Notes: generated by a model not told the origin, from the sequence alone. Shown: positions 6,482 to 63,217, counted from the first letter of the stretch. The stretch: DNA of 64,000 nucleotides from an uncultured Gammaproteobacteria bacterium (GCA_964344415.1 CAYFMS010000001.1:317315-381314); one strand, 5' to 3'. Made by a program: numbers and translations.

Positions 6482-6760
6482 CTAGGGTGTAGGGTGTAGG
6501 GTGTAGGGTGCCGTTACGGATTTACGGATAATACTGATATACGGATTTATGTGGAGGTAGAAGAGATTCAGGAGATTGAGGAGATTTTAGGAGCTTCGCG
6601 TCATTCCGGCCTCCGAGCCGGAATCCATCGTAATACGAAAGCGATGGATCCCTACCTGCCGGCAGGCAGGCCGGATCTCCGCCTCGCTCCGTCCGGGATG
6701 ACGACAAGTCCTTGTTTATGAATCATAAACGGAATTATCGTCAACTATTTTCTACTTACT
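6481..6760. repeat. Modular intergenic repeat element, copy A (inverted relative to copies B and D)
   Basis: Contains the (gggtgta)x4 heptamer run and gatatacggatt. gaagagattcaggagattgaggagatt is the reverse complement of the aatctcttcaatctcc module at 24350 and 46625. Also has the gtcattccggc hairpin and the module ggatccctacctgccggcaggcagg...gtccgggatgacgacaagtccttgtttatgaatcataaacgg, which is about 85 % identical to 40375-40465. Confidence 0.7.
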
Positions 6761-24094: not shown

Positions 24095-24180
24095 CTTTCG
24101 GGTATGTCGTACGAAGCTATTGCAGCGCCTCCTCCTCGCTACAATGTGCGGAATATGACATACCCGAAAGGGCGTTTTTT
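24095..24180 (+). terminator. Long inverted repeat plus T9 run after the PDZ-protein gene
   Basis: gccctttcgggtatgtc ... gacatacccgaaagggc followed by ttttttttt. Confidence 0.55.
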
Positions 24181-24480
24181 TTTGCCGCTTGTGAGCTTGC
24201 GCTCTTGCATCTCCATGCTCCGCTCCTCGACAACGTACCTTTCAGTACGTCTTACTTCGGTGCTCGCATGTCAAAGCAATAGCATCAAGCTCACTTCGCG
24301 ACCCCATTTGAAATCCTGAGCCTGTCGAAGGATCTCTCAAATTGCGATGAGAATCTCTTCAATCTCCCAAATCTCTTCTATATCCTTTTGCACTTCTCTA
24401 TGTGCTATTTTCTACTAACTACTTACTTCGTAGCCGTCAATCCGTATATCCATACCATCTGTACATTCGTAATTATTTAC
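24175..24480. repeat. Modular intergenic repeat element, copy B
   Basis: Modules present are ttttttt-gccgcttgtgag, caacgtacctttcagtacg, gcgaccccatttgaaatcc, aatctcttcaatctcccaaatctcttctat and ccgtatatcc. Confidence 0.7.
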
Positions 24481-26063: not shown

Positions 26064-27584
26064 ATGAAGAACTTGTTTTTCGTCCTTCTCACGGTTTTTG
26101 CCGTGAGTGGCTGCGCCGAATGGGCGCCGCTCGAGGACATTCGATTCACTGATCGTGGTGATTCGGATACGGATACCGATGCGGATTCGGATGCAGACAC
26201 GGACACGGATACTGACGCAGACTCCGATACGGACACCGACACCGATACCGACGCAGACAGCGATACGGACACGGATACGGATACCGATGCGGATTCGGAT
26301 GCAGACACGGACACGGATACTGACGCAGACTCCGATACGGACACCGACACCGATACCGACGCAGACAGCGATACGGACACGGATACGGATACCGATGCGG
26401 ATTCGGATGCAGACACGGACACGGATACTGACGCAGACTCCGATACGGATACCGACACCGATACCGATGTGTCTCCTGACGCAGATGGCGACGGGTGGAC
26501 TGTCGATGCAGGTGACTGCAACGATAACCCCGTCTTCGGTTACTGGTACAATCCTGATCAGGAAGAGAGCTGTGGCGATGCCCAGGACTACAACTGTGAT
26601 GGGCACGACGATCCGCTTGCCGGGTGTGTCGAATGCTACTGGGATTCGGATGGTGACGGATACGGATCCTCCACCTCGTACGAGATGGAGGAATGTGATG
26701 GTCACTACTACGTGACTGTCGACGGAGATTGTGAGATCTTCGATGATAATTCCTATCCGGGTGCTGACGAAGACTGTGATGGCATCGACAATGACTGCGA
26801 TGGTGACATCGACGAAGGTTGCCTGATTTCGCCACCCGACAATGACAACGACGGTTACGATGTGTACAACGATTGTGACGACACCGACCCCTACCGGAAT
26901 CCTGGTGAGGACGAGGTATACGACATTCGTGACAACGACTGCGACGGAGTTCAGGACAATGTCCCCAACCAGGGGCATCGTGCTCTCTCCCGCTGGTACA
27001 AGATTCACGGCTACCAGAACCTCGACATCGACGGTGACGGTACTACGGGTCTGTACGAGGACATCGAGCATCGCTTCTCGGCAACTTCGCCGGGCAGTGG
27101 ATGGTACCAGGATGCCACCGAGCTCCTGACGTACCCGCTCGACATCTGCTCGAGCGGGTACGGTCCTTCGGACACTTGTATCGTCCGCAGCAATGGCGAG
27201 GTCGAGCTCTGGGGCGGGTACGTTCTCGTGCCACTCTACGAGTGCTACCGCGTCGACACCACCGGACTCCACACCACGGAGTACCACCCGCAGAACAGTG
27301 CGGGCTACATGGCGGCATCGAGTTGTGCATTCTCGCCAGTCGGTCTGGTTGTTCCCACGGGGACGAGTACCTCAATCGATCAGCAGGATTTGCTTCCGTA
27401 CTATCTTCATGCGTCGGCGCCGTATTACGGTGTCAGTGAGGTCGAGGGTGCTTCCGGCTACAATGCTGGCGACATCATGTACTCGGACCTCTGGGATGAA
27501 GGAGACGGAACGGGTCCGGGTGGATCCTACACGTACCACCAGACGGCCTGGTTCGCACTCAATCCGGACGATACTACCTACTGA
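26064..27584 (+). CDS. Lipoprotein with a (D-T/A/S)n acidic tandem-repeat region and MopE-type Cys-rich putative metal-binding motifs (GC-rich island)
   Basis: GGAAGGAG RBS and lipobox-like FAVSGC. About 110 aa of [10 protein letters not shown] repeats. DGDGYGS...CDDTDP...[22 protein letters not shown] matches the Cu-binding_MopE-type motif pattern. Confidence 0.7.
26170..26490 (+). repeat. Near-perfect 108-bp tandem repeat, about 3 copies, inside the CDS, encoding the DTD repeats
   Basis: gataccgatgcggattcggatgcagacacggacacggatactgacgcagactcc... recurs with a 108-nt period. Confidence 0.8.
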
Positions 27585-37185: not shown

Positions 37186-37815
37186 TTATATTCTTGAATA
37201 TTTTCGTATAACAGCTCTGACAATTCCTTGAATATTTACATCTCCTTTTACGATAATCGGTTCCATGGTGCTATTTGCTGGCTGGAGTCGAATGAATCCA
37301 GCTTCGCGATAAAAGCGTTTCAGTGTTGCATATGCATTATCGAGAAGTGCGACGACAATATCTCCATTTTTTGGGGAGGGATTTCTTTCTATAACGACAT
37401 AGTCCCCGTTGAAAATGCCATCTTCAATCATGGACCGCCCTCGTACTTGCAGAACATATGAATTGCTTGCACTGACAACAAAGTCGGCTGGAATGGCAAT
37501 GGCTTCATTTTCTTCAATGGCTTCAATAGGTTCTCCCGCTGTAATGAGGCCCGCCAGTGGCAGCATGATGCTCATCGGTGAATGCAGTTCAGCATCAACA
37601 AGTTCTATTGAGCGCGCTTCGCCATCACCGCCCGTTTGTAATACCCCCTTTTCACAAAGTGCCTGAACATGTCCATGAATGGTTGATGGTGAGGATAAAC
37701 CAAGGCCACTCGCAATCTCGCGATAGGAGGGAGTATATCCACATTCACGAATGAAATTCTCAATAAAATCTAGAACTTCCTTCTGTTTTTTTGTTAGGGG
37801 AGGATTATTGTTCAT
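37186..37815 (-). CDS. lexA: LexA repressor
   Basis: N-terminal wHTH, then S24 peptidase with the VRGRSM Ser motif and the Lys of the dyad. Confidence 0.9.
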   Translation of the reverse strand: MNNNPPLTKKQKEVLDFIENFIRECGYTPSYREIASGLGLSSPSTIHGHVQALCEKGVLQTGGDGEARSIELVDAELHSPMSIMLPLAGLITAGEPIEAIEENEAIAIPADFVVSASNSYVLQVRGRSMIEDGIFNGDYVVIERNPSPKNGDIVVALLDNAYATLKRFYREAGFIRLQPANSTMEPIIVKGDVNIQGIVRAVIRKYSRI

Positions 37816-37921: not shown

Positions 37922-38971
37922 ATGTTAAAGTCGAGCCCTAGAACTATGCTGAAAACGACATGCATGCCGCTTGCCGGCCATCCGGATAAAGTGTGCGATC
38001 ACATTGTTGAAACGCTCCTAGATGAGTATTTGAAGCGTGACCAAAAAAGTCGTGTGAATATTCAAGCTCTTGGATCACATGGAATGGTTATGATTGGTGG
38101 TATTGCTGATTCGCGGGCAGATTTTGATGCAGCTGAGATCATTCGTCGTCTTTATAAAGAAATTGGACATGATGATGAAATTGAGCCATTCGTGAATATT
38201 GAGCGCCCAGGGGAAGATATGGCGCGCGTACTCGTAAAGGGTGCGAGTCAAGGAACGGTGATTGTATACGGTTATGCGACGAGTGAGACGCGTGAAATGC
38301 TACCGCGCAGCGTTGTGTATGCACATGATTTAGCTCGGCGTATTGATGATTTGCGTAAAAATGACAGTCAATTTTCTTGGTTAGGAGCTGATGGTTTTGT
38401 GCAGGTGACTATGGATGGCGATAGCCCAAAGCATATTGTTTTGCATGTTCAGCATATGCCAAGCATTGAAACGAGTAATGTGCAGTCCAGCCTTCTTGAG
38501 TCGGCCGTCAATCCTATTTTTGGAAATCATGAGCATGCGAAGATTTATATCAATGCGGCTGGTGAATTTACGCAAGGAGGACTTGCGGCGCATGCGGGTT
38601 CTTCGGGCCGTAAAATCTCATCTAGTTTATATGGTGGATTACTTCCAGCATCTGATGCGAGTTTTTTTGGAAAAGATCCTTGGCATCCAGCAAGATCTGG
38701 AACATATATGGCGCGGCATATTGCCAAGAAACTTACGGCTGACGGTGCAGGAAATGCGCTCGTAAAACTTGTGTATGTTATGGGGCAGCAGGATCCAATT
38801 TTAGTCGAGGCAGTAACGGGCCGAGGTGAAGATATGTCTGAAAAAGTAAAAGCATTTGATTTGCGACCCGAAGCTATTGTTGAACAATTTTCTCTCAATA
38901 AAGCAATGTTCAGGAATTACAGTGCCTATAATATGTTTGCGCGCACCGATGCTCCATGGGAAATGATATAA
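37922..38971 (+). CDS. Divergent S-adenosylmethionine synthetase (MetK) paralog with altered active-site motifs. The start is chosen at MLKSSP, which has a GGAAGG RBS; the ORF track begins at 37751.
   Basis: GHPDKVCDHIVETLLDEY (MetK N-terminal motif) but GASQGT replaces GAGDQG, and SDASFFGKDPWHPARSGTYMARH replaces [22 protein letters not shown]. Confidence 0.65.
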   Translation: MLKSSPRTMLKTTCMPLAGHPDKVCDHIVETLLDEYLKRDQKSRVNIQALGSHGMVMIGGIADSRADFDAAEIIRRLYKEIGHDDEIEPFVNIERPGEDMARVLVKGASQGTVIVYGYATSETREMLPRSVVYAHDLARRIDDLRKNDSQFSWLGADGFVQVTMDGDSPKHIVLHVQHMPSIETSNVQSSLLESAVNPIFGNHEHAKIYINAAGEFTQGGLAAHAGSSGRKISSSLYGGLLPASDASFFGKDPWHPARSGTYMARHIAKKLTADGAGNALVKLVYVMGQQDPILVEAVTGRGEDMSEKVKAFDLRPEAIVEQFSLNKAMFRNYSAYNMFARTDAPWEMI

Positions 38972-55995: not shown

Positions 55996-56871
55996 ATGTC
56001 TGACTATTATAGAATTCCTCGAGGAGGAAATTGGAATTATGGAGGGAGAAATTGGAAACTAAGCCGAAGTAAAATTGATTTATTTCAGCAGTGCCCGCGC
56101 TGTTTTTGGCTCGACAATAAAAAAGGGCTAAAAAGGCCACCTGGATATCCTTTTAATATTAACTCGGCTGTTGATAATTTGCTGAAAACGGAATTTGATG
56201 GGCATCGAGCGAATGGTGAGCCTCATCCGCTGATGAAGGAATATGGTTTGTCTGCGGTGCCGGCTCAGCATGAGAAAATCGATACGTGGCGCGAGAATTT
56301 TGAGGGTGTGATTTGTCAGCATGATCCGACGGGGATGACGATTAGTGGGGCGATTGATGATTTGTGGGTGAATGATGCGGGTGAGTATATCGTTGTGGAT
56401 TATAAGGCGACGGCGAAAAGTGAGCCCGTGAAGAGTTTGGATGCGCCTTGGCAGGACGGGTATAAGCGGCAGATGGAGGTGTATCAATGGTTGCTTCGCC
56501 AGAATGGATTGAAAGTTTCTGATACGGGGTATTTTGTGTATTGCACGGGGCGGCCGGATGCGGAGGCATTTGACGGGAAGGTTGAGTTTGATGTGCATTT
56601 AATCCCGTATACGGGTAGTGATGATTGGGTCGAGGATCGGTTGATGGAGATTAAGGCCTGCCTTGAAGTAGATGAAATGCCAGAATCTGGCGCTGATTGT
56701 GATTATTGCAAATACCGCCGCGAGCTCGCGAAAGTTGAAATTTCTTCTGAGCCGGATTTCAGTGCTGGAGATCTTGGCGCGGGCGATAATGCCGTGTTCG
56801 AGGACATGCCTCAGCTCGCCGCAGCGGAAGAAGCCCCTGCAAAAAAGCCAGAACAGGGGAGTTTGCTCTAG
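55996..56871 (+). CDS. Stand-alone Cas4/RecB-like PD-(D/E)xK nuclease with an Fe-S Cys cluster
   Basis: QQCPRCFW, then IDDLWVNDAGEYIVVDYKAT (D-D/E-K) and QMEVYQW, and a C-terminal C-x12-C-x2-C. Confidence 0.6.
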   Translation: MSDYYRIPRGGNWNYGGRNWKLSRSKIDLFQQCPRCFWLDNKKGLKRPPGYPFNINSAVDNLLKTEFDGHRANGEPHPLMKEYGLSAVPAQHEKIDTWRENFEGVICQHDPTGMTISGAIDDLWVNDAGEYIVVDYKATAKSEPVKSLDAPWQDGYKRQMEVYQWLLRQNGLKVSDTGYFVYCTGRPDAEAFDGKVEFDVHLIPYTGSDDWVEDRLMEIKACLEVDEMPESGADCDYCKYRRELAKVEISSEPDFSAGDLGAGDNAVFEDMPQLAAAEEAPAKKPEQGSLL

Positions 56872-56892
56872 TGTGGTACAATGAAAATACAA

Positions 56893-57025
56893 TTGAATAT
56901 ATCAAGAGATAGTTAGGGAACGAGCCCATTGATCTGTCCGCAACCTGCCATTGGTAAGGTGCGAATTCTCGCCCAAAGGGAAAGATAAATTTTAACCACT
57001 CTTTTCCCGGAGTGGATTTTCATTT
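56893..57025 (+). promoter_or_regulatory. SAM-I (S-box) riboswitch with terminator expression platform upstream of metK
   Basis: aUAUCAAGAG..AGGGA..GAGCCCaUUGA..CGCAACC..GGUGCGAAUUCuC..GGAAAGAUaAA matches the S-box consensus blocks. This is followed by ccactc-ttttcccg-gagtgg then attttcattt (terminator). Confidence 0.7.
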
Positions 57026-57027
57026 CT

Positions 57028-57981
57028 ATGAATCAAGAATATTTTACGGCCGAGTCCGTGACGATTGGTCATCCAGACCGTATGTGCGATCAATTTTCAG
57101 ATGCTATTTTAGCGGCATATGTTGCTCAAGATCCAAATGCGCGTGTTGCGGTCGAATGCATGGGAGGGCATGGGAAAGTGTGGGTATGCGGGGAAGTGAC
57201 CTCGAATGCAGAGATTAATATCCCGTCCATTATTCAAAAAACATATCGAGACATTGGTTATAAAGATGAATTGCAAATTGAGGTTCATTTGGTGAAACAG
57301 TCGCCGGATATTGCACGCTGCGTTGATACGGGCGGGGCGGGGGATCAGGGGATTGTGATTGGGTACGCTTGCGATGAAACGCCTGAATTTTTACCGTTAG
57401 AGGCTGCACTTGCTCATCGTTTGACGGATGCGCTCACCGAGGCTCGGGTTTCGGGGCGATTGCCTTATTTGGGTCCAGATGGAAAATCGCAGGTGACGGT
57501 GAATCCTGCGACGGGTCATGTGAAGGCGATTGTTTTGAGCGCGCAGCATGATGCGAGTGTTTCGATTGATCGGGTACGTGCGGATCTTCGCGAGCTTTGT
57601 TTCTCTGTCATCCCGGGCTTGCATGTCCGCTGTAGCTCGCAGAGCGAAAGCGGGACCCGGGATCCAGCGTATTTCATTTCTGAAGATACACAATTCTTCC
57701 TCAATCCCGCCGGTCCATTCATTCAAGGAGGATTCGAGGCAGATACCGGCCTTACGGGCCGAAAGCTTGTTGTAGATTTTTACGGTCCGCGCGTACCAAT
57801 TGGCGGTGGAACAACGCACGGAAAAGACATGACAAAAACCGACCGATCAGGCGCCATGAAAGCAAGAGAAAAAGCGATTGAGATTTTGCAGGAAAAAGGC
57901 GCAAAAGAGGTGACTGTTGTGTATAGCTATGCGATTGGAATTGCGGGTCCGATTGATGAGAGGGTGGTGGTGAATATATAA
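57028..57981 (+). CDS. metK: S-adenosylmethionine synthetase (short, 317 aa; canonical motifs retained)
   Basis: GHPDRMCDQFSDAIL, GAGDQG and GGGTTHGKDMTKTDRSGA. Preceded by the SAM-I riboswitch. Confidence 0.8.
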   Translation: MNQEYFTAESVTIGHPDRMCDQFSDAILAAYVAQDPNARVAVECMGGHGKVWVCGEVTSNAEINIPSIIQKTYRDIGYKDELQIEVHLVKQSPDIARCVDTGGAGDQGIVIGYACDETPEFLPLEAALAHRLTDALTEARVSGRLPYLGPDGKSQVTVNPATGHVKAIVLSAQHDASVSIDRVRADLRELCFSVIPGLHVRCSSQSESGTRDPAYFISEDTQFFLNPAGPFIQGGFEADTGLTGRKLVVDFYGPRVPIGGGTTHGKDMTKTDRSGAMKAREKAIEILQEKGAKEVTVVYSYAIGIAGPIDERVVVNI

Positions 57982-58054
57982 ATATTGTTTGGCAGCGATT
58001 GTTATGAAGTTATGCACATTGTTGCAACTGTAAACTATTGTAAAATATCAATGT

Positions 58055-59503
58055 ATGAATCAAAATTATCTACTTGTCGAAGAGATTGCTGATGAATTGC
58101 GAGTTAGCAATATGACCGTTTATCGCTATATAAAATCCGGATCACTTCCTGCATATAAGCTTGGAAAAGAGTATCGTATCAAATCAGACGATTTTATAAG
58201 TTTTATGAAAGATGCTCGTACAGTTGGGCAACTTAAATTTATAGATTTGTTTGCCGGATTGGGCGGAACCCGAATAGGATTTGAACAAGCCTGTGTGGAT
58301 CTAGGAATTGAGGCGAAATGCGTTTTTACTTCTGAGATAAAGCCACATGCTGTCGATGCGTATTCAACCAATTTTATCGGTGAGAAGATTTCTGGTGATA
58401 TTACTAAGATCGATTATACTACCTTGCCTGACTTTGATTACCTGTTAGGAGGATTTCCTTGTCAGCCATTTAGCTCTGCCGGTAAAAGGCTGGGTTTTTT
58501 TGATACAAGAGGTACACTTTTTTTTAATATAGAAGAAATATTGCGTGTAAAAAAGCCGGTAGGATTTTTGCTGGAAAACGTTGAAGGGTTGGCTAATCAT
58601 AACCAAGGCAAGACATTACAAGTTATTATAAGTAATTTGTCGGCTCTAGGATATCATACGTCCTGGCGTGTCCTGGACGCAAAAAATCATGGAGTCCCGC
58701 AATCAAGGCGCAGAACCTATATTGTGGGACGGAGAGACTCATCGGTAAATATAAATCAGGCGAACTTCAAGAAGAGGTGTCCTAGAATGAAAGATATTCT
58801 TGAAGATGGGTTGGAGGTTATGAATACAGACTTTACTAAAAAATTACTTCATCACTATTCAGTGTCTGATGTTATTGGGAAATCTATCAAGGATAAGAGG
58901 GGTGGTCCGAGTAATATCCATAGCTGGGATATACATTTAAAGGGGCGTGTCAGTAATGTTCAGAAAAAAATTCTCAATAAGCTTTTACGAGAAAGGCGCA
59001 AGAAGCATTGGGCGGAAAAGAAAGGGATTAAATGGATGGATGGAATGCCACTTACGCTCAACGAGATCCTGACGTTTATTGATTGTAAAAAAGATTTACT
59101 TCAATTGCATCTCGATGATCTTGTTGTAAAGGGATACTTACGACTTGAGTATCCAAAGAAGGTAGTTGAGCAGAAGAATGGAATACAAAAGCGAGAATAC
59201 GATACAGAAAAAGAAAGAGGATATAATATAGTCGCTGGGAAATTAAGTTTCGAAATTAGCAAGATACTGCACCCGGAAGGTATTGCGCCTACACTTGTAG
59301 CTACGGACTCAACAAAGTTGGCTGTGCCCGATGGGTGTGGCGTGCGACGTCTTACTGTGAGAGAGGGACTTCGTTTGTTTGGATTCCCTGAAGATTACAA
59401 GCTAGAGGTCTCATATAGTAAGGCATTTGACTTGCTTGGAAATACCGTAGTGGTGCCGGTTATAAAGGATGTGGCTTCCGTCTTACTTAATTCAGGCAGG
59501 TAG
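58055..59503 (+). CDS. DNA (cytosine-5)-methyltransferase with an N-terminal excisionase/MerR-like HTH
   Basis: HTH LRVSNMTVYRYIKSGSLPAYK. Motif I DLFAGLGG, motif IV GGFPCQPFS, ENV, QSRRRTYIVG and GNTVVVPV. Confidence 0.85.
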   Translation: MNQNYLLVEEIADELRVSNMTVYRYIKSGSLPAYKLGKEYRIKSDDFISFMKDARTVGQLKFIDLFAGLGGTRIGFEQACVDLGIEAKCVFTSEIKPHAVDAYSTNFIGEKISGDITKIDYTTLPDFDYLLGGFPCQPFSSAGKRLGFFDTRGTLFFNIEEILRVKKPVGFLLENVEGLANHNQGKTLQVIISNLSALGYHTSWRVLDAKNHGVPQSRRRTYIVGRRDSSVNINQANFKKRCPRMKDILEDGLEVMNTDFTKKLLHHYSVSDVIGKSIKDKRGGPSNIHSWDIHLKGRVSNVQKKILNKLLRERRKKHWAEKKGIKWMDGMPLTLNEILTFIDCKKDLLQLHLDDLVVKGYLRLEYPKKVVEQKNGIQKREYDTEKERGYNIVAGKLSFEISKILHPEGIAPTLVATDSTKLAVPDGCGVRRLTVREGLRLFGFPEDYKLEVSYSKAFDLLGNTVVVPVIKDVASVLLNSGR

Positions 59504-60268
59504 TTACAGGACTCTCCCTGTCCACTCTTTGTAATTTTCTGATACGATACTAAACCAAGTGTCTGAGTCTATTTCATCTGACAAATGACTATAATTCTGT
59601 ATTACTTTTTCCAGTGCTAAAACAAAATCTTTTCTTTGTGCAAAAGGCTTGAACTTTGAATTATCAGAAAACCACGAAGCCGGTCTAATATTGATGATCT
59701 TTCCTTGCTTCCTCTGAACCTTTAGTGGAAGGTTATTGCTGGGACAACAGAGTTCCCATACTTTTTTGAGCCAAAGATTTCGAATTTTGATGGTTGAGTT
59801 TGTGAGCTCGTATGCGAATATAAGGTAGTCTGAATCTAGTTTATATGCCTCATGCATCAAGGTTCTGGCATAGGCGTCAAAATTGGCGATGTCAAAGTTA
59901 GCCGATGCGGTGTGGTCGAATGCTTTGACTTCAAGTAAATCCTCGTGGTCACTGATCGACAGGAAGAAATCAGGTGCTTCTTGACTATTGGGATTTGGCC
60001 TATGGTATATCTTATGTTTCACCATCCAATTTTTTAGCCATTCTTCAAGGATGTTGCCCATCGCACTTTTTTCGTTCATTTTGAAGCGGACATCCAAGAG
60101 CTTCATCTGAATCACGCCTTCAGCGCCAATGATTCCTTGAGAAAGAAGTTCGGAATAGATTGAGTTGGCGCGCATACTGATATTCATATTAACTAAATGA
60201 ATCTTACACATAAAAGATGTCAATTGCAAAGAAGTTGGTGCAATATAGGGGTATATGATTATATGCAA
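59504..60268 (-). CDS. Putative type II restriction endonuclease, convergent partner of the methyltransferase. Start uncertain; M20, M28 and M32 are alternatives.
   Basis: Convergent and adjacent to the C5-methyltransferase. ISDHEDLLEVKAF resembles a PD-(D/E)xK core. Confidence 0.45.
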   Translation of the reverse strand: MHIIIYPYIAPTSLQLTSFMCKIHLVNMNISMRANSIYSELLSQGIIGAEGVIQMKLLDVRFKMNEKSAMGNILEEWLKNWMVKHKIYHRPNPNSQEAPDFFLSISDHEDLLEVKAFDHTASANFDIANFDAYARTLMHEAYKLDSDYLIFAYELTNSTIKIRNLWLKKVWELCCPSNNLPLKVQRKQGKIINIRPASWFSDNSKFKPFAQRKDFVLALEKVIQNYSHLSDEIDSDTWFSIVSENYKEWTGRVL

Positions 60269-60308
60269 TCATTGGCGTCTAAGCTCTGGTCGGGTAAGGT
60301 TGTAGAGT

Positions 60309-60983
60309 ATGAGGTTCTCGAAGCGATATTATAGACTATTTCTAACATATGAAGATTGGGTAGATTTACTCAAAAAATCACTATTAAAACGTGCTTATAA
60401 ATCTGGGATTGGAATTAATATTTTGATATCTGATAAAGATGTCTTTAAGGCATTTCGGGATTCATATTGCAAGGAATTATCTTGTAAGAGCACAGACTTT
60501 GCTGAATGCTTTTTAGCTTTTGAATCTCTGTATAAATTTTATGACGAAGATGTAGAGATAGGCTTTGAGGCTAAATCAAGTTTTAAACTAAATGAATCAG
60601 TTATTGATGATTTGGATGCACTCTTTTCATTTTGTAGAAAGGATACTGATGTAGATGCCATTGTGAGGCATCCGAATGGTGTGGTTCGAGATTTTCAGTT
60701 TAAAAGTTTTGTAGAATCGCCCGATAAACTGACATCAGAGAATCTAGCTGAGTATATCTGCGAAAAGGTAAGCGGTGGATACTTGCGTGTAAATTGGCTC
60801 GTTAATCTAGTGGTGCATGGTGGAAGTACGGATGAGGTCGATTTTGGTGAGTTGAGTAGATTGATCAAGAACTACTTGTCAGGAAAGAGAGAAGTCTTAA
60901 TTATTTTTAATGAGAATAATGAGTTTAATACCATGATAAGGGTGTATCCAGATTTGGCTATGCTTCGTGTCGAGAGGTCTTGA
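60309..60983 (+). CDS. Hypothetical protein adjacent to the R-M pair
   Basis: 224-aa ORF, no family recognised. Confidence 0.45.
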   Translation: MRFSKRYYRLFLTYEDWVDLLKKSLLKRAYKSGIGINILISDKDVFKAFRDSYCKELSCKSTDFAECFLAFESLYKFYDEDVEIGFEAKSSFKLNESVIDDLDALFSFCRKDTDVDAIVRHPNGVVRDFQFKSFVESPDKLTSENLAEYICEKVSGGYLRVNWLVNLVVHGGSTDEVDFGELSRLIKNYLSGKREVLIIFNENNEFNTMIRVYPDLAMLRVERS

Positions 60984-60999
60984 CACTCCCACCAAAAAA

Positions 61000-61460
61000 T
61001 AGTAATATCTTGGCAGTTGAATAACCGTAGAAAACGGGTTGCTGATTCTTTCGGCGCTGGATACCGGATCAAGTCCGGTATGACGAGTGGCGATGATGAA
61101 GCATAAGTCCCGTCGAGGTAATACAGTTCGATTATCAAGGGATCCCGGATCGGGGTCCGGGATGACGAATTGAATATACATCTCTCGGTTTCAACACCGG
61201 GATTTATTTTTTGACAGAATGACTGTTTCTGATCCAGAAACCAAGGAGTTCTGTCATCCGTCCGTAGCTCGAAGAGCGAAGGCGGACACTCCTATCAATT
61301 CACCAAATCATTCTGCACTGGATCCCAGATCGGGGTCTGGGATGACGAAGTGGAGCGAAGGCGGATATCCCATTTAATTCAAACGTATTGATTGCGCTGG
61401 ATTCCCTGCCTGCCGGCAGGCAGGCGGCTCGTGGGCCGGAATGACAATGCAAGAGATGCA
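61000..61460. repeat. Modular intergenic repeat element, composite copy E
   Basis: Two copies of ggatccc(a/g)gatcggggtc(c/t)gggatgacgaa, then attccctgcctgccggcaggcagg and gggccggaatgacaatg. Confidence 0.6.
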
Positions 61461-61999: not shown

Positions 62000-62110
62000 T
62001 ATTCGGTCCATTTTCGGCTCACGGGTCCCTTGTTTCTTCTCAACGTACGTTTTAGTACGTCTGCGAATAAACATTTCCGTTCACCAAAACTGAATCCAAA
62101 TATATCCGTC
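62000..62110. repeat. Intergenic repeat fragment, copy F, between rplJ and rplL
   Basis: ctcacgggtcccttgtttcttctcaacgtacgttttagtacg is highly similar to 62668-62722. Confidence 0.55.
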
Positions 62111-62654: not shown

Positions 62655-62790
62655 TTCCAGAATCAGACCATCTGCGTTGTTACGGGTCCCGTCGGTCTTC
62701 ATCATCGTACGTTTCAGTACGACTCTTCGACCGCCACCCGTGCCTAGCATCTGATCCAATTCTGAAACTTTATTGGCAGAATGCCTAGAA
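62655..62790. repeat. Intergenic repeat fragment, copy G, after rplL
   Basis: gttacgggtcccgtcggtcttcatcatcgtacgtttcagtacg. Confidence 0.55.
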
Positions 62791-62829
62791 AAAGCCCCGA
62801 TTGGGGCTTTTTCTGTTACCAACAAACTA

Positions 62830-63060
62830 AGGCCGTCAGGCCTCGAGTACCCCGCAGAAGCCCCTGTCATTCCCGCGAAAGCGGGAATCCACCGATTGTC
62901 GAAATACAGGGGATCCTCCGCCTTTGCTCTTCCCCCTTCGCTCGGCTAGCCGAGCGAAGGGGGACATGCCGAGCTTCGGCGGACAGGCGGGGCGGATCAA
63001 GTCTGGGATAACGAATGGTGTGTGTATTGAGACAGGGGGCAAGCAGCACTTGAAATATAA
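62830..63060. repeat. Intergenic palindromic repeat cluster, copy H
   Basis: gtcattcccgcgaaagcgggaatcc hairpin, cgctcggctagccgagcg hairpin, and gtctgggataacgaatgg. Confidence 0.5.
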
Positions 63061-63217
63061 AGATACCACGGCCGCGAGACCTCGAATTTCATTTGTGGAT
63101 AGGGAAAATTCGCCACGACATGCCGTGATATTATATCTCTGTAAAACATAATCCGTGAGATGCTTGTCTCTCGCTTAACCCCCAATTATGTATAGAGGAG
63201 TTTACGGCCTACGCGTC

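What the first reader, a model, noticed from the sequence alone, without database searches (positions are those of the whole stretch)
55996..60983. Defence-like cluster: stand-alone Cas4-like nuclease, riboswitch-controlled metK, HTH-fused Dcm methyltransferase with convergent REase, unknown gene
The C5-methyltransferase carries an N-terminal excisionase/MerR-like HTH, likely acting as its own controller. It is tail-to-tail with a 254-aa candidate restriction endonuclease. It is flanked upstream by metK, the SAM supplier, and a Cas4-like Fe-S nuclease, and downstream by a 224-aa unknown protein and a repeat element. The arrangement suggests a mobile R-M/defence island that may have captured the metK locus.
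Basis: partly seen in the sequence, partly recalled or inferred. Interest (0 to 1): 0.5.

Follow-up and report, generated by a model that had tools for sequence, protein, structure and literature searches.

The report
NlaIV-type restriction-modification island abutting truncated metK
A small foreign DNA island carrying an ordinary NlaIV/NgoBV-type restriction-modification pair, whose methylase has an unusual fused DNA-binding domain, plus an uncharacterised nuclease-like gene, sits exactly where the host's riboswitch-controlled metK gene ends about 70 codons early.

Summary

Window 57,982-60,983 is a 3-kb low-GC segment (38.5% vs 45.3%) with three genes:
- A C5-MTase with an N-terminal HTH_17 domain.
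- A convergent REase homologous to the solved R.NlaIV (E 4.6e-43), which recognises GGNNCC. The PD...ExK motif is intact.
- A 224-aa protein from an unannotated family. Its model (pLDDT 93.6) and invariant E/D/QxK residues indicate a PD-(D/E)XK nuclease fold.

The HTH fusion is absent from all 119 closest MTase homologues. MTase-fused repressors are already known (SsoII, Ecl18kI, EcoRII).

The Cas4-like gene, the SAM riboswitch and metK have host composition, so they were not "captured". metK instead stops exactly at the island's left edge. It lacks about 70 C-terminal residues that are present in all 156 homologues examined. A second, catalytically degenerate metK paralogue lies 19 kb upstream.

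The "stand-alone" Cas4-like gene scores below the Cas4 cutoff and lies 12 kb from a type V-F CRISPR-Cas locus.

Verdict: an ordinary R-M system with a variant control architecture, plus two side points of moderate interest (the truncated metK and the ORF224 family).

The parts
55996..56871 (+). RecB/Cas4-family PD-(D/E)XK nuclease (291 aa). Host backbone, not part of the island.
   Evidence: PF12705 at 9.7e-14. Cas4 models are sub-threshold (TIGR00372 33.7 bits vs cutoff 65; PADLOC Cas4 2e-10). GC 0.484, host-like. Cys residues at 33, 36, 222, 235 and 238. No homologue sits next to metK in 160 other loci.
56896..57024 (+). SAM-I riboswitch aptamer (56896-56991) plus terminator-type expression platform (56996-57015 and T-run).
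   Evidence: RF00162 at 61.6 bits vs gathering score 44.4, model positions 1-108 of 108. Terminator-like hairpin followed by a T-run.
57028..57981 (+). metK, C-terminally truncated (317 aa). Catalytic motifs are kept, but the last ~70 residues are missing.
   Evidence: TIGR01034 positions 2-306 of 377, 281 bits against a cutoff of 309. All 80 genome homologues and all 76 complete metagenome homologues continue beyond this point (median +69/70 residues). All 15 conserved columns (>=95%) that lie beyond its end are absent. No 3' remnant lies next to the island.
57982..58054 (+). Left edge of the island and M-gene upstream region, with four same-strand ATTGT repeats (57984, 57998, 58018, 58037). 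Candidate operator for the fused HTH.
   Evidence: 4 copies observed vs 0.128 expected. It is the only such cluster in the 64 kb. GC falls from 0.50 to 0.37 here.
58055..59503 (+). C5 cytosine DNA methyltransferase (482 aa) with a fused N-terminal HTH_17 (excisionase/MerR-type) domain at residues 8-53 (58076-58213).
   Evidence: PF12728 at 1.6e-12 and PF00145 at 8e-81; TIGR00675 at 325 bits. M.HhaI matches at 3e-51. Motifs FAGLGG, PCQ, ENV, QxRxR and GN are present. The HTH is an add-on missing from the 4 syntenic relatives and from 119 closest homologues.
59504..60175 (-). Type II restriction endonuclease of the NlaIV/NgoBV family (223 aa; alternative ATG start at 60211; longest ORF reaches 60268).
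   Evidence: PF09564 at 1.9e-46. R.NlaIV structure 6qm2 matches at 4.6e-43 over residues 3-218. Family-conserved P68, D69, E82 and K84 are present. 1088 homologues of 220-229 aa.
60176..60308 (.). Divergent promoter region between the REase gene and ORF224. Contains ATTGCA-N10-TGCAAT (60223) and ATGATT-N6-AATCAT (60255).
   Evidence: No ATTGT motif occurs here.
60309..60983 (+). ORF224: member of an unannotated ~230-aa family with a predicted PD-(D/E)XK nuclease fold. Lowest-GC gene in the window.
60980..61450 (+). Right flank: promoter-like TTGACA-17-TAATAT (60980-61008), then host-type dispersed hairpin repeats upstream of rplJ (61472).
   Evidence: Copies of the CCTGCCGGCAGGCAGG hairpin also occur at 6645 and 40195.

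Best explanation
A ~3-kb horizontally acquired segment (about 57,976-60,983) carries a Type II restriction-modification system of the NlaIV/NgoBV family and one extra gene.

The REase is a PD-(D/E)XK enzyme predicted by homology to cut unmethylated GGNNCC. The convergent C5-methyltransferase protects the host's own sites, about 1.6 per kb in this window. The methyltransferase has acquired an N-terminal HTH_17 domain. By analogy with the dual-function MTase repressors M.EcoRII, M.SsoII and M.Ecl18kI, this domain most likely binds its own promoter region to autorepress M expression. The ATTGT x4 cluster at 57,984-58,041 is the candidate site. This role is filled by a separate C protein in at least one related system (L088). 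The R and M genes abut tail-to-tail with no terminator between them, so transcriptional collision or antisense effects may also tune the R:M ratio.

The third gene, ORF224, is a separate predicted PD-(D/E)XK nuclease. It belongs to an uncharacterised family found in variable defence and mobile-element neighbourhoods. It is probably an independent cargo or defence gene rather than an R-M subunit.

The segment lies between host metK and rplJ. Its arrival, or an associated deletion, most likely removed the last ~70 codons of the riboswitch-controlled metK.

Shown: gene identities, domain architecture, uniqueness of the fusion among close homologues, the composition break, the metK truncation, and the ORF224 fold.
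Inferred: GGNNCC specificity, HTH autoregulation, insertion as the cause of the truncation, and nuclease activity of ORF224.
For: - REase: PF09564 at 1.9e-46. R.NlaIV structure 6qm2 at 4.6e-43 with PD...EVK aligned. Family-conserved P68, D69, E82 and K84 present. NlaIV is a GGNNCC blunt cutter (PMC3388099).
- MTase: PF00145 at 8e-81 and all motifs present.
- Gene order: the same convergent R/M arrangement occurs in four related loci.
- HTH: PF12728 at 1.6e-12 and TIGR01764 at 8.9e-13. It is a clean 55-residue N-terminal addition and is absent from 119 closest homologues. L088 has a separate HTH_3 gene upstream of its REase. MTase-fused repressors are established (PMC3978073, PMC2760811, PMC12707154).
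- Candidate operator: ATTGT x4 vs 0.128 expected, unique in the window.
- Foreign composition: 0.385 vs 0.453 GC. The three genes rank 1st, 4th and 5th lowest of 53 ORFs.
- metK truncation. Homology runs to within 1-2 codons of the stop, which lies in AT-rich island-type sequence.
- ORF224. Neighbourhoods of its relatives.
Against: - No integrase, transposase, or significant flanking direct or inverted repeats mark the segment. Only a 7-bp TTGGCAG occurs near both edges, which is compatible with chance.
- The GC deviation is moderate (gene z-scores -1.0 to -1.8).
- No relative closer than 49% MetK identity exists in either collection. There is therefore no empty-site comparison, and the truncation could predate the island.
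- GGNNCC shows no avoidance beyond that of the control CCNNGG (z -2.5 vs -1.6 to -2.2), so nothing speaks to long-term activity.
- The ATTGT cluster was found post hoc, it is direct rather than palindromic, and it is absent from the REase promoter.
Confidence: 0.7

Rival explanations
1. One reading: the whole 55,996-60,983 stretch (Cas4-like nuclease, metK, R-M pair, ORF224) is one mobile defence island that captured metK as a SAM supplier for the methyltransferase.
For: The genes are adjacent, and metK's product is the MTase cofactor. PD-(D/E)XK/Cas4-like nucleases do occur in defence islands. PADLOC Cas4 models give weak hits.
Against: The Cas4-like gene, riboswitch and metK have host GC (0.48-0.50), whereas the island genes have 0.35-0.40. 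metK is truncated at the boundary rather than intact. Four related NgoBV-type loci carry no metK or Cas4-like gene. There are no mobility genes. MetK's best matches are other small-genome uncultivated lineages, consistent with a native gene.
Confidence: 0.07
2. The short metK is a native, functional short form or an old lineage-specific truncation. The R-M segment merely inserted in the intergenic space downstream of it.
For: The 317-codon ORF, its riboswitch and its terminator are intact. GHPD, GAGDQG and DTGLTGRK are kept. Saccharibacteria MetKs are also short overall at 319 aa. No 3' remnant was found.
Against: All 156 complete homologues extend at least 18 residues, and typically ~70, beyond this point. 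Even the 319-aa Saccharibacteria proteins keep the RPIY...YGH(Y/F)G tail. 15 of 15 conserved terminal columns are missing. The stop codon lies exactly at the composition break. The score is below the NCBIfam equivalog cutoff.
Confidence: 0.25
3. ORF224 is a functional third component of this R-M system, for example a second nuclease subunit, a methyl-dependent back-up nuclease, or a Vsr-like repair enzyme for 5mC deamination. It would be co-regulated from the divergent promoter shared with the REase gene.
For: It has the same foreign composition and sits immediately next to the REase gene, with a 133-bp divergent promoter region. It has a predicted nuclease fold. One relative (P0243) lies next to a HinfI REase fragment.
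Against: None of four NgoBV-type loci has an ORF224-like gene. Five sampled ORF224 relatives have no NgoBV pair or C5-MTase nearby and have varied neighbours. There is no profile similarity to the REase family. Vsr-type models do not hit it.
Confidence: 0.12
4. The pair is a decayed or orphan system: an active MTase with an inactive REase, or both inactive. The HTH-MTase would then act mainly as an epigenetic or transcriptional regulator.
For: Activity cannot be tested here. There is no site avoidance signal. The fused HTH could give the MTase a regulatory role.
Against: The REase ORF is full-length relative to its family, with all invariant and catalytic residues kept. The MTase motifs are intact. 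Identical copies persist across five sister assemblies.
Confidence: 0.1

Closest known systems
NlaIV / NgoBV Type IIP restriction-modification systems (Neisseria; REase family PF09564, structure 6qm2)
   Same: The REase is homologous over its full length (E 4.6e-43) and has the same PD...EVK motif. The partner is a C5-MTase, and the gene pair is convergent as in other family members.
   Different: The system is in an uncultivated small-genome bacterium. The best non-self REase homologue in the database is 58% identical, and identity to NlaIV itself was not calculated. Specificity is therefore inferred, not shown. The MTase carries an N-terminal HTH_17 domain that none of the 119 closest homologues has.
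Dual-function MTase repressors: M.SsoII / M.Ecl18kI and M.EcoRII (PMC3978073, PMC2760811, PMC12707154)
   Same: A C5-MTase is translationally fused to an N-terminal HTH region that controls transcription of the R-M genes. As reviewed, M.EcoRII represses only its own gene, which is the behaviour expected here because R and M have separate promoters.
   Different: SsoII and Ecl18kI have divergent R/M genes with an operator between overlapping promoters. Here the genes are convergent, and the candidate operator (ATTGT x4) occurs only upstream of M. The HTH here is the excisionase/MerR-type HTH_17. Homology to the SsoII or EcoRII N-terminal regions was not tested. The catalytic core belongs to a different MTase subfamily.
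C-protein-controlled Type II R-M systems (e.g. PvuII; related locus L088)
   Same: An HTH protein is dedicated to timing R versus M expression. The related NgoBV-type locus L088 has a 69-aa HTH_3/HTH_31 gene directly upstream of its REase.
   Different: There is no separate C gene in the window. The HTH is fused to the MTase and belongs to a different HTH family.
PA4535 / DUF1780 (PDB 1y0k) and other minimal PD-(D/E)XK nucleases (CdiA-CT toxins, NucC, Mrr-like domains)
   Different: There is no sequence-level relationship. ORF224 has an extra N-terminal helical region (~60 residues) and a QxK rather than (D/E)xK motif. Its function and substrate are unknown.
Cas4 (TIGR00372) / RecB-family nucleases
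   Same: The 291-aa protein at 55,996 has the PD-(D/E)XK_1 domain, a D...DYK and QxxxY-type motif by inspection, and Cys pairs near both ends.
   Different: It scores 33.7 bits against a cutoff of 65. It is not adjacent to cas1 or cas2, and the type V-F locus is 12 kb away. The Cys pattern is CX2C...CX2C rather than the canonical C...CX2CX5C.

Membership tests
Type II R-M, NlaIV/NgoBV family | REase matches PF09564 above the gathering score | tested here: met
   158.9 bits vs 25. PADLOC REase_II 1.2e-43.
Type II R-M, NlaIV/NgoBV family | Homology to a characterised or solved member, with catalytic PD...(D/E)XK residues retained | tested here: met
   6qm2 (R.NlaIV) at 4.6e-43 over residues 3-218, with PDFF...LLEVKAF aligned. 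P68, D69, E82 and K84 are conserved in a 32-sequence family alignment.
Type II R-M, NlaIV/NgoBV family | Adjacent cognate C5-MTase with complete catalytic motifs | tested here: met
   PF00145 at 8e-81. FAGLGG, PCQ, ENV, QSRRR and GNTV are present. The same convergent pairing occurs in 4 related loci.
Type II R-M, NlaIV/NgoBV family | Recognition of GGNNCC, with restriction and methylation activity | not testable with these tools
   Inferred from family membership only. GGNNCC counts (104 vs 121-133 expected) show no specific avoidance.
Dual-function MTase repressor (SsoII/Ecl18kI/EcoRII type) | DNA-binding HTH region translationally fused to the N-terminus of a C5-MTase | tested here: met
   HTH_17 at residues 8-53, followed by motif I at residue 63.
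Dual-function MTase repressor (SsoII/Ecl18kI/EcoRII type) | Operator for the HTH in the system's own promoter region | tested here: inconclusive
   ATTGT x4 cluster upstream of M (expected 0.128; unique in the window). It was found post hoc, there is no strong palindrome, and binding is untested.
Dual-function MTase repressor (SsoII/Ecl18kI type specifically) | Divergent R and M genes with overlapping promoters sharing one operator | tested here: not met
   R and M are convergent and abut at 59503/59504. Their promoter regions are 2 kb apart and share no motif of 8 nt or more.
Dual-function MTase repressor (SsoII/Ecl18kI/EcoRII type) | Sequence homology of the N-terminal region to the SsoII or EcoRII regulatory regions | not tested
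Cas4 (TIGR00372 equivalog) | Score at or above the curated cutoff | tested here: not met
   33.7 bits vs 65.
Cas4 (TIGR00372 equivalog) | Encoded within a cas operon next to cas1/cas2 | tested here: not met
   Its neighbours are glmS and the metK riboswitch. Cas1 and Cas12f-type genes lie at 41.7-43.8 kb, 12 kb away.
Cas4 (TIGR00372 equivalog) | Four-Cys Fe-S cluster (C...CX2CX5C) | tested here: inconclusive
   Cys residues at 33, 36, 222, 235 and 238 give CX2C...CX2C, not the canonical spacing.
MetK (TIGR01034 equivalog) | Full three-domain protein scoring above the cutoff | tested here: not met
   281.3 bits vs 309.4. Model positions 2-306 of 377, and C-domain positions 2-78 of 138. 15 of 15 conserved terminal columns are missing.
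SAM-I riboswitch (RF00162) | Aptamer above the gathering score, followed by an expression platform | tested here: met
   61.6 bits vs 44.4, full-length match. Terminator hairpin at 56996-57015 plus T-run, 13 nt before the metK ATG.
PD-(D/E)XK nuclease superfamily (for ORF224) | Alpha-beta-beta-beta-alpha-beta core fold | tested here: met
PD-(D/E)XK nuclease superfamily (for ORF224) | Conserved acidic residue and Lys at the canonical beta2/beta3 positions | tested here: met
   D116 is invariant at the start of beta2. Q130 (95%) and K132 (invariant) lie in beta3. E66 is invariant in alpha1.
PD-(D/E)XK nuclease superfamily (for ORF224) | Recognised by a sequence profile of a known family | tested here: not met
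   No consistent Pfam, NCBIfam, PADLOC, PHROGs or PDB-sequence hit. HamA is hit by only 2 of 65 members at 2e-4.

The most novel reading that the evidence does not exclude
ORF224 represents a previously undescribed family of small stand-alone PD-(D/E)XK nucleases (E...D-x13-QxK). The family rides in defence islands and mobile elements as an independent anti-phage or addiction module. Here it would be co-resident with, and possibly co-regulated from a divergent promoter with, an NlaIV-type REase whose MTase has independently evolved a fused excisionase-type repressor. A further reading not excluded: the island's arrival inactivated the only catalytically competent metK, which would make this small-genome bacterium dependent on imported SAM while it carries a SAM-dependent self-protection system.
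Probability: 0.2. Interest if true: 0.5.

Novelty: new variant of a known kind. Interest (0 to 1): 0.3.

Why it matters
The core finding is ordinary: a Type II R-M system of a well-characterised family. Three aspects have some value.

1. It shows that the "MTase fused to its own repressor" solution has arisen again. The MTase subfamily is different, the HTH is an excisionase/MerR-type HTH_17, and the genes are convergent. A related system uses a separate C protein. This makes a useful natural comparison for how R-M systems solve the establishment-timing problem.

2. The island boundary coincides to within a few codons with a truncated, riboswitch-controlled metK, while the only other metK paralogue has lost catalytic residues. 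If the truncated enzyme is dead, this reduced-genome organism cannot make the cofactor on which its own R-M self-protection depends.

3. ORF224 defines an unannotated, confidently modelled nuclease-fold family (~70 cluster representatives) that recurs in defence-type neighbourhoods. It is a cheap candidate for defence-gene screens.

Tried and rejected
- **ORF224 as an orphan.** The word-indexed homologue search for ORF224 found only itself. This was overturned by the exhaustive HMMER search.
- **Single-sequence AF2 of ORF224.** Unusable at pLDDT 45.
- **Foldseek on the ORF224 model.** No significant hit against PDB or BFVD. AFDB50 was unavailable.
- **metK 3' remnant beside the island.** None found. 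The only tail hit was the distant paralogue at 38.7 kb.
- **Synteny or empty-site test.** Neither genome contigs nor metagenome contigs holds a MetK above 49% identity. None of the 160 loci shares glmS, the Cas4-like gene or the island, and only one (L074) has rplJ/rplL nearby.
- **Flanking target-site duplications or terminal inverted repeats.** Nothing above chance.
- **Shared operator between the M and R promoter regions.** No shared word of 8 nt or more.
- **GGNNCC avoidance as a proxy for activity.** Not distinguishable from control palindromes.
- **ORF224 as a diverged copy of the REase.** hhalign probability 0.4%.
- **Source names and project.** No names in the protein clusters, and no paper mentions PRJEB17505.

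Full report
**1. Observation**

- 55,996-56,871 (+): a 291-aa PD-(D/E)XK_1 protein (PF12705, 9.7e-14). Its Cas4 matches are sub-threshold (TIGR00372 33.7 bits against a cutoff of 65).
- 56,896-56,991 (+): a full-length SAM-I riboswitch (RF00162, 61.6 bits against 44.4). A terminator hairpin at 56,996-57,015 plus a T-run follows it, 13 nt before the metK ATG.
- 57,028-57,981 (+): metK.
- 58,055-59,503 (+): a 482-aa protein with HTH_17 (residues 8-53, 1.6e-12; TIGR01764 'excise' 8.9e-13) followed by a C5-MTase domain (PF00145 8e-81; TIGR00675 325 bits).
- 59,504-60,268 (-): a REase ORF abutting the MTase stop codon (PF09564 RE_NgoBV, 1.9e-46).
- 60,309-60,983 (+): a 224-aa ORF with no hit in Pfam, NCBIfam or PADLOC.
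- 61,040-61,450: hairpin repeats, then rplJ and rplL.

The window comes from a 768-kb metagenomic contig (PRJEB17505). Exact copies of these proteins occur only in sister assemblies.

**2. The R-M pair is real and ordinary**

The REase has 1,088 homologues, all PF09564 and mostly 220-229 aa. This supports the 223-aa start at 60,175 rather than the mechanical 254-aa ORF. It matches the solved structure of R.NlaIV (6qm2) at E 4.6e-43 over residues 3-218, with PDFF...LLEVKAF aligned. P68, E82 and K84 are invariant and D69 nearly invariant across a 32-member alignment, and all four are present here. NlaIV is a blunt cutter at GGNNCC (PMC3388099). PF09564 is listed as a PD-(D/E)XK Type II REase family (PMC3424549).

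The MTase has motifs I, IV, VI, VIII and X and matches M.HhaI at 3e-51. Four related loci show the same convergent REase/C5-MTase arrangement. GGNNCC specificity is an inference from family membership. Site counts in the window (104 against 121-133 expected, z about -2.5) do not differ from the control CCNNGG, so they say nothing about activity.

**3. The HTH fusion**

Aligned with the four syntenic relatives (57-65% identity), residues 5-59 of the window's MTase are a clean N-terminal addition. The relatives begin directly at motif I. Among the 119 best non-self homologues (56-65% identity), none carries PF12728 and all cover only 84-90% of the query. One related system (L088) has a separate 69-aa HTH_3/HTH_31 gene immediately upstream of its REase, which looks like a classic C protein.

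MTases fused to their own repressor are established. M.SsoII residues 1-71 regulate transcription (PMC3978073). M.Ecl18kI binds an operator between divergent R and M genes (PMC2760811). M.EcoRII represses only its own gene (review PMC12707154).

Here the genes are convergent, so the two promoters are 2 kb apart. The 73-bp M-upstream region holds four same-strand ATTGT copies (0.128 expected) and is the only such cluster in 64 kb. The motif is absent from the REase/ORF224 promoter region. That region instead has ATTGCA-N10-TGCAAT and ATGATT-N6-AATCAT.

My reading is EcoRII-like autorepression of M, possibly combined with convergent-transcription effects across the terminator-less 59,503/59,504 junction. 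This is inference. The ATTGT cluster was found post hoc.

**4. Island boundaries and metK**

GC drops from about 0.50 to 0.37-0.42 at 57,980 and recovers after 60,983. The segment averages 0.385 against 0.453 for the rest of the window, and its three genes rank 1st, 4th and 5th lowest among 53 gene-sized ORFs. The Cas4-like gene (0.484) and metK (0.498) are host-like. No integrase, transposase or significant flanking repeat was found. The downstream hairpins belong to a dispersed host family with copies at 6,645 and 40,195.

metK ends exactly at the left boundary.
- It covers TIGR01034 positions 2-306 of 377 and falls below the equivalog cutoff (281 against 309 bits).
- In 80 genome-derived homologues the ORF continues 44-100 codons beyond the end of the alignment.
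- In 76 complete metagenome-derived homologues the protein extends a median of 69 residues beyond the window protein's end, with a minimum of 18.
- Of 127 columns that are at least 95% conserved, all 15 beyond its end are missing. It keeps 89 of the 112 within its span, including GHPD, GAGDQG and DTGLTGRK.
- Homology runs to within 1-2 codons of a stop codon embedded in AT-rich sequence (AATATATAAATATTG).
- No 3' remnant lies beside the island.

The most economical reading is that insertion, with an accompanying deletion, clipped metK. The island did not 'capture' it. Because no relative closer than 49% identity exists in either collection, an older, independent truncation cannot be excluded.

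The tail search also revealed a second metK paralogue at about 37,946-38,971 (+), next to a lexA-like gene. It is full-length (C domain 2-137 of 138) but keeps only 62 of 112 plus 8 of 15 conserved columns. GAGDQG has become GASQGT and DxGLTGRK has become HAGSSGRK. One copy therefore has the catalytic motifs but no tail, and the other has the tail but degenerate motifs.

**5. ORF224**

The word-indexed search found only the protein itself. The exhaustive HMMER search found 70 relatives at 25-36% identity, almost all 205-260 aa. The alignment has invariant E66, D116, K132, N201 and P214, and near-invariant F129 and Q130.

With this alignment AlphaFold gives pLDDT 93.6 and pTM 0.87. E66 lies in a helix. 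D116 opens the next-but-one strand. Q130-x-K132 sits in the following strand, and a helix and a strand follow. This is the canonical PD-(D/E)XK core.

Neighbourhoods of five relatives vary but look like defence or mobile-element settings:
- an integrase/HTH_17 element with HEPN and HATPase/DUF4325 genes;
- a HinfI REase fragment;
- a Cap15-like domain;
- a caspase-like peptidase with GIY-YIG, SocA and Fic.

None has an NgoBV pair, and NgoBV loci have no ORF224-like gene. I conclude that ORF224 is a predicted nuclease of an uncharacterised family and is probably independent cargo.

**6. The 'stand-alone Cas4-like' gene**

It is a RecB/Cas4-family PD-(D/E)XK protein with a D...DYK and QxxxY pattern and CX2C pairs near both ends. 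It fails the Cas4 equivalog cutoff, has host composition, and sits between glmS and the riboswitch. I found nothing linking it to the R-M island. It is not in a cas-free genome: the window carries a type V-F CRISPR-Cas locus at 41.2-44.3 kb (see Noticed in passing).

**7. Verdict**

This is a genuine but ordinary NlaIV/NgoBV-type R-M system on a small foreign segment. Three points are of modest interest:
- a lineage-unique HTH_17-MTase fusion, which is a variant of the known dual-function MTase repressor theme;
- a riboswitch-controlled metK truncated exactly at the island edge;
- an unannotated nuclease-fold family.

Interest 0.3. Novelty: new variant of a known kind.

Noticed in passing
window 41209-44505: Compact type V-F CRISPR-Cas locus. 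A 429-aa Cas12f-type effector lies at 41732-43021 (-) (PADLOC Cas12_x1, 1.3e-103). An N-terminally short Cas1 lies at 43095-43799 (-) (PF01867, 3e-25, profile positions 85-259 of 283). They are flanked by two arrays of a ~40-nt repeat (GTAGCATACCACTCCCTCTCCCGAAGGAGGGGTGTGAACC) with ~31-nt inserts: 3 copies at 41209-41397 and 6 copies at 43852-44254. Each array is followed by a 297-nt duplicated flank (93% identical). No cas2 or cas4 is adjacent. Alternate spacers show some similarity to each other (TRF period 143, 81% matches).
   Followed up: partly
window 37946-38971 (+): Second, full-length but degenerate metK paralogue, divergent from a lexA-like gene at 37186-37815 (-). It has all three Pfam MetK domains but keeps only 70 of 127 highly conserved columns. 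GAGDQG has become GASQGT and DxGLTGRK has become HAGSSGRK. It may be a pseudo-enzyme or neofunctionalised.
   Followed up: partly
window 6645-6746, 40195-40467, 61040-61450, 62780-63070: Dispersed intergenic hairpin repeat family (CCTGCCGGCAGGCAGG; GGATCCCGGATCGGGGTCCGGGATGACGAA; a 92-nt unit that is 90% identical between 6655 and 40376). The elements are REP- or MITE-like and fill the spacer upstream of rplJ and the region after rplL.
   Followed up: partly
window 60980-61008 (+): Near-consensus sigma-70-like promoter TTGACA-17-TAATAT (10 of 12 matches) overlapping the ORF224 stop codon and reading towards rplJ. It may be the rplJL promoter or an outward-reading promoter at the island edge.
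   Followed up: no
window 62652 onward; L001 16191-20954: rplJ-rplL is followed not by rpoB but, after a repeat-rich spacer, by a 2378-aa Big_5/CarboxypepD_reg surface-type protein. This is an unusual gene order for the ribosomal-protein/rpoBC region.
   Followed up: no
window 26128-26523: Long in-frame tandem array of 12- and 18-nt units (17 overlapping copies of a 144-nt register), probably a low-complexity coding repeat.
   Followed up: no
window 24180-24472 vs 46497-46700; also 40024-40097, 62037-62062, 62699-62724: Several short sequence blocks recur at these places: TTTTGTCGCTTGTGAG..., a CGTACGTTTCAGTACG hairpin, and a 45-nt block that is 89% identical between 24343 and 46616. They may be shared terminator or regulatory modules, or remnants of a duplicated element.
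   Followed up: no
L088 4790-7826: The closest long-contig relative of the R-M pair has a separate 69-aa HTH_3/HTH_31 C-protein-like gene upstream of its REase, an IS1595-family transposase immediately beside the MTase, and a second C5-MTase 2 kb further on. This is direct evidence that the R-M family travels with mobile DNA.
   Followed up: partly
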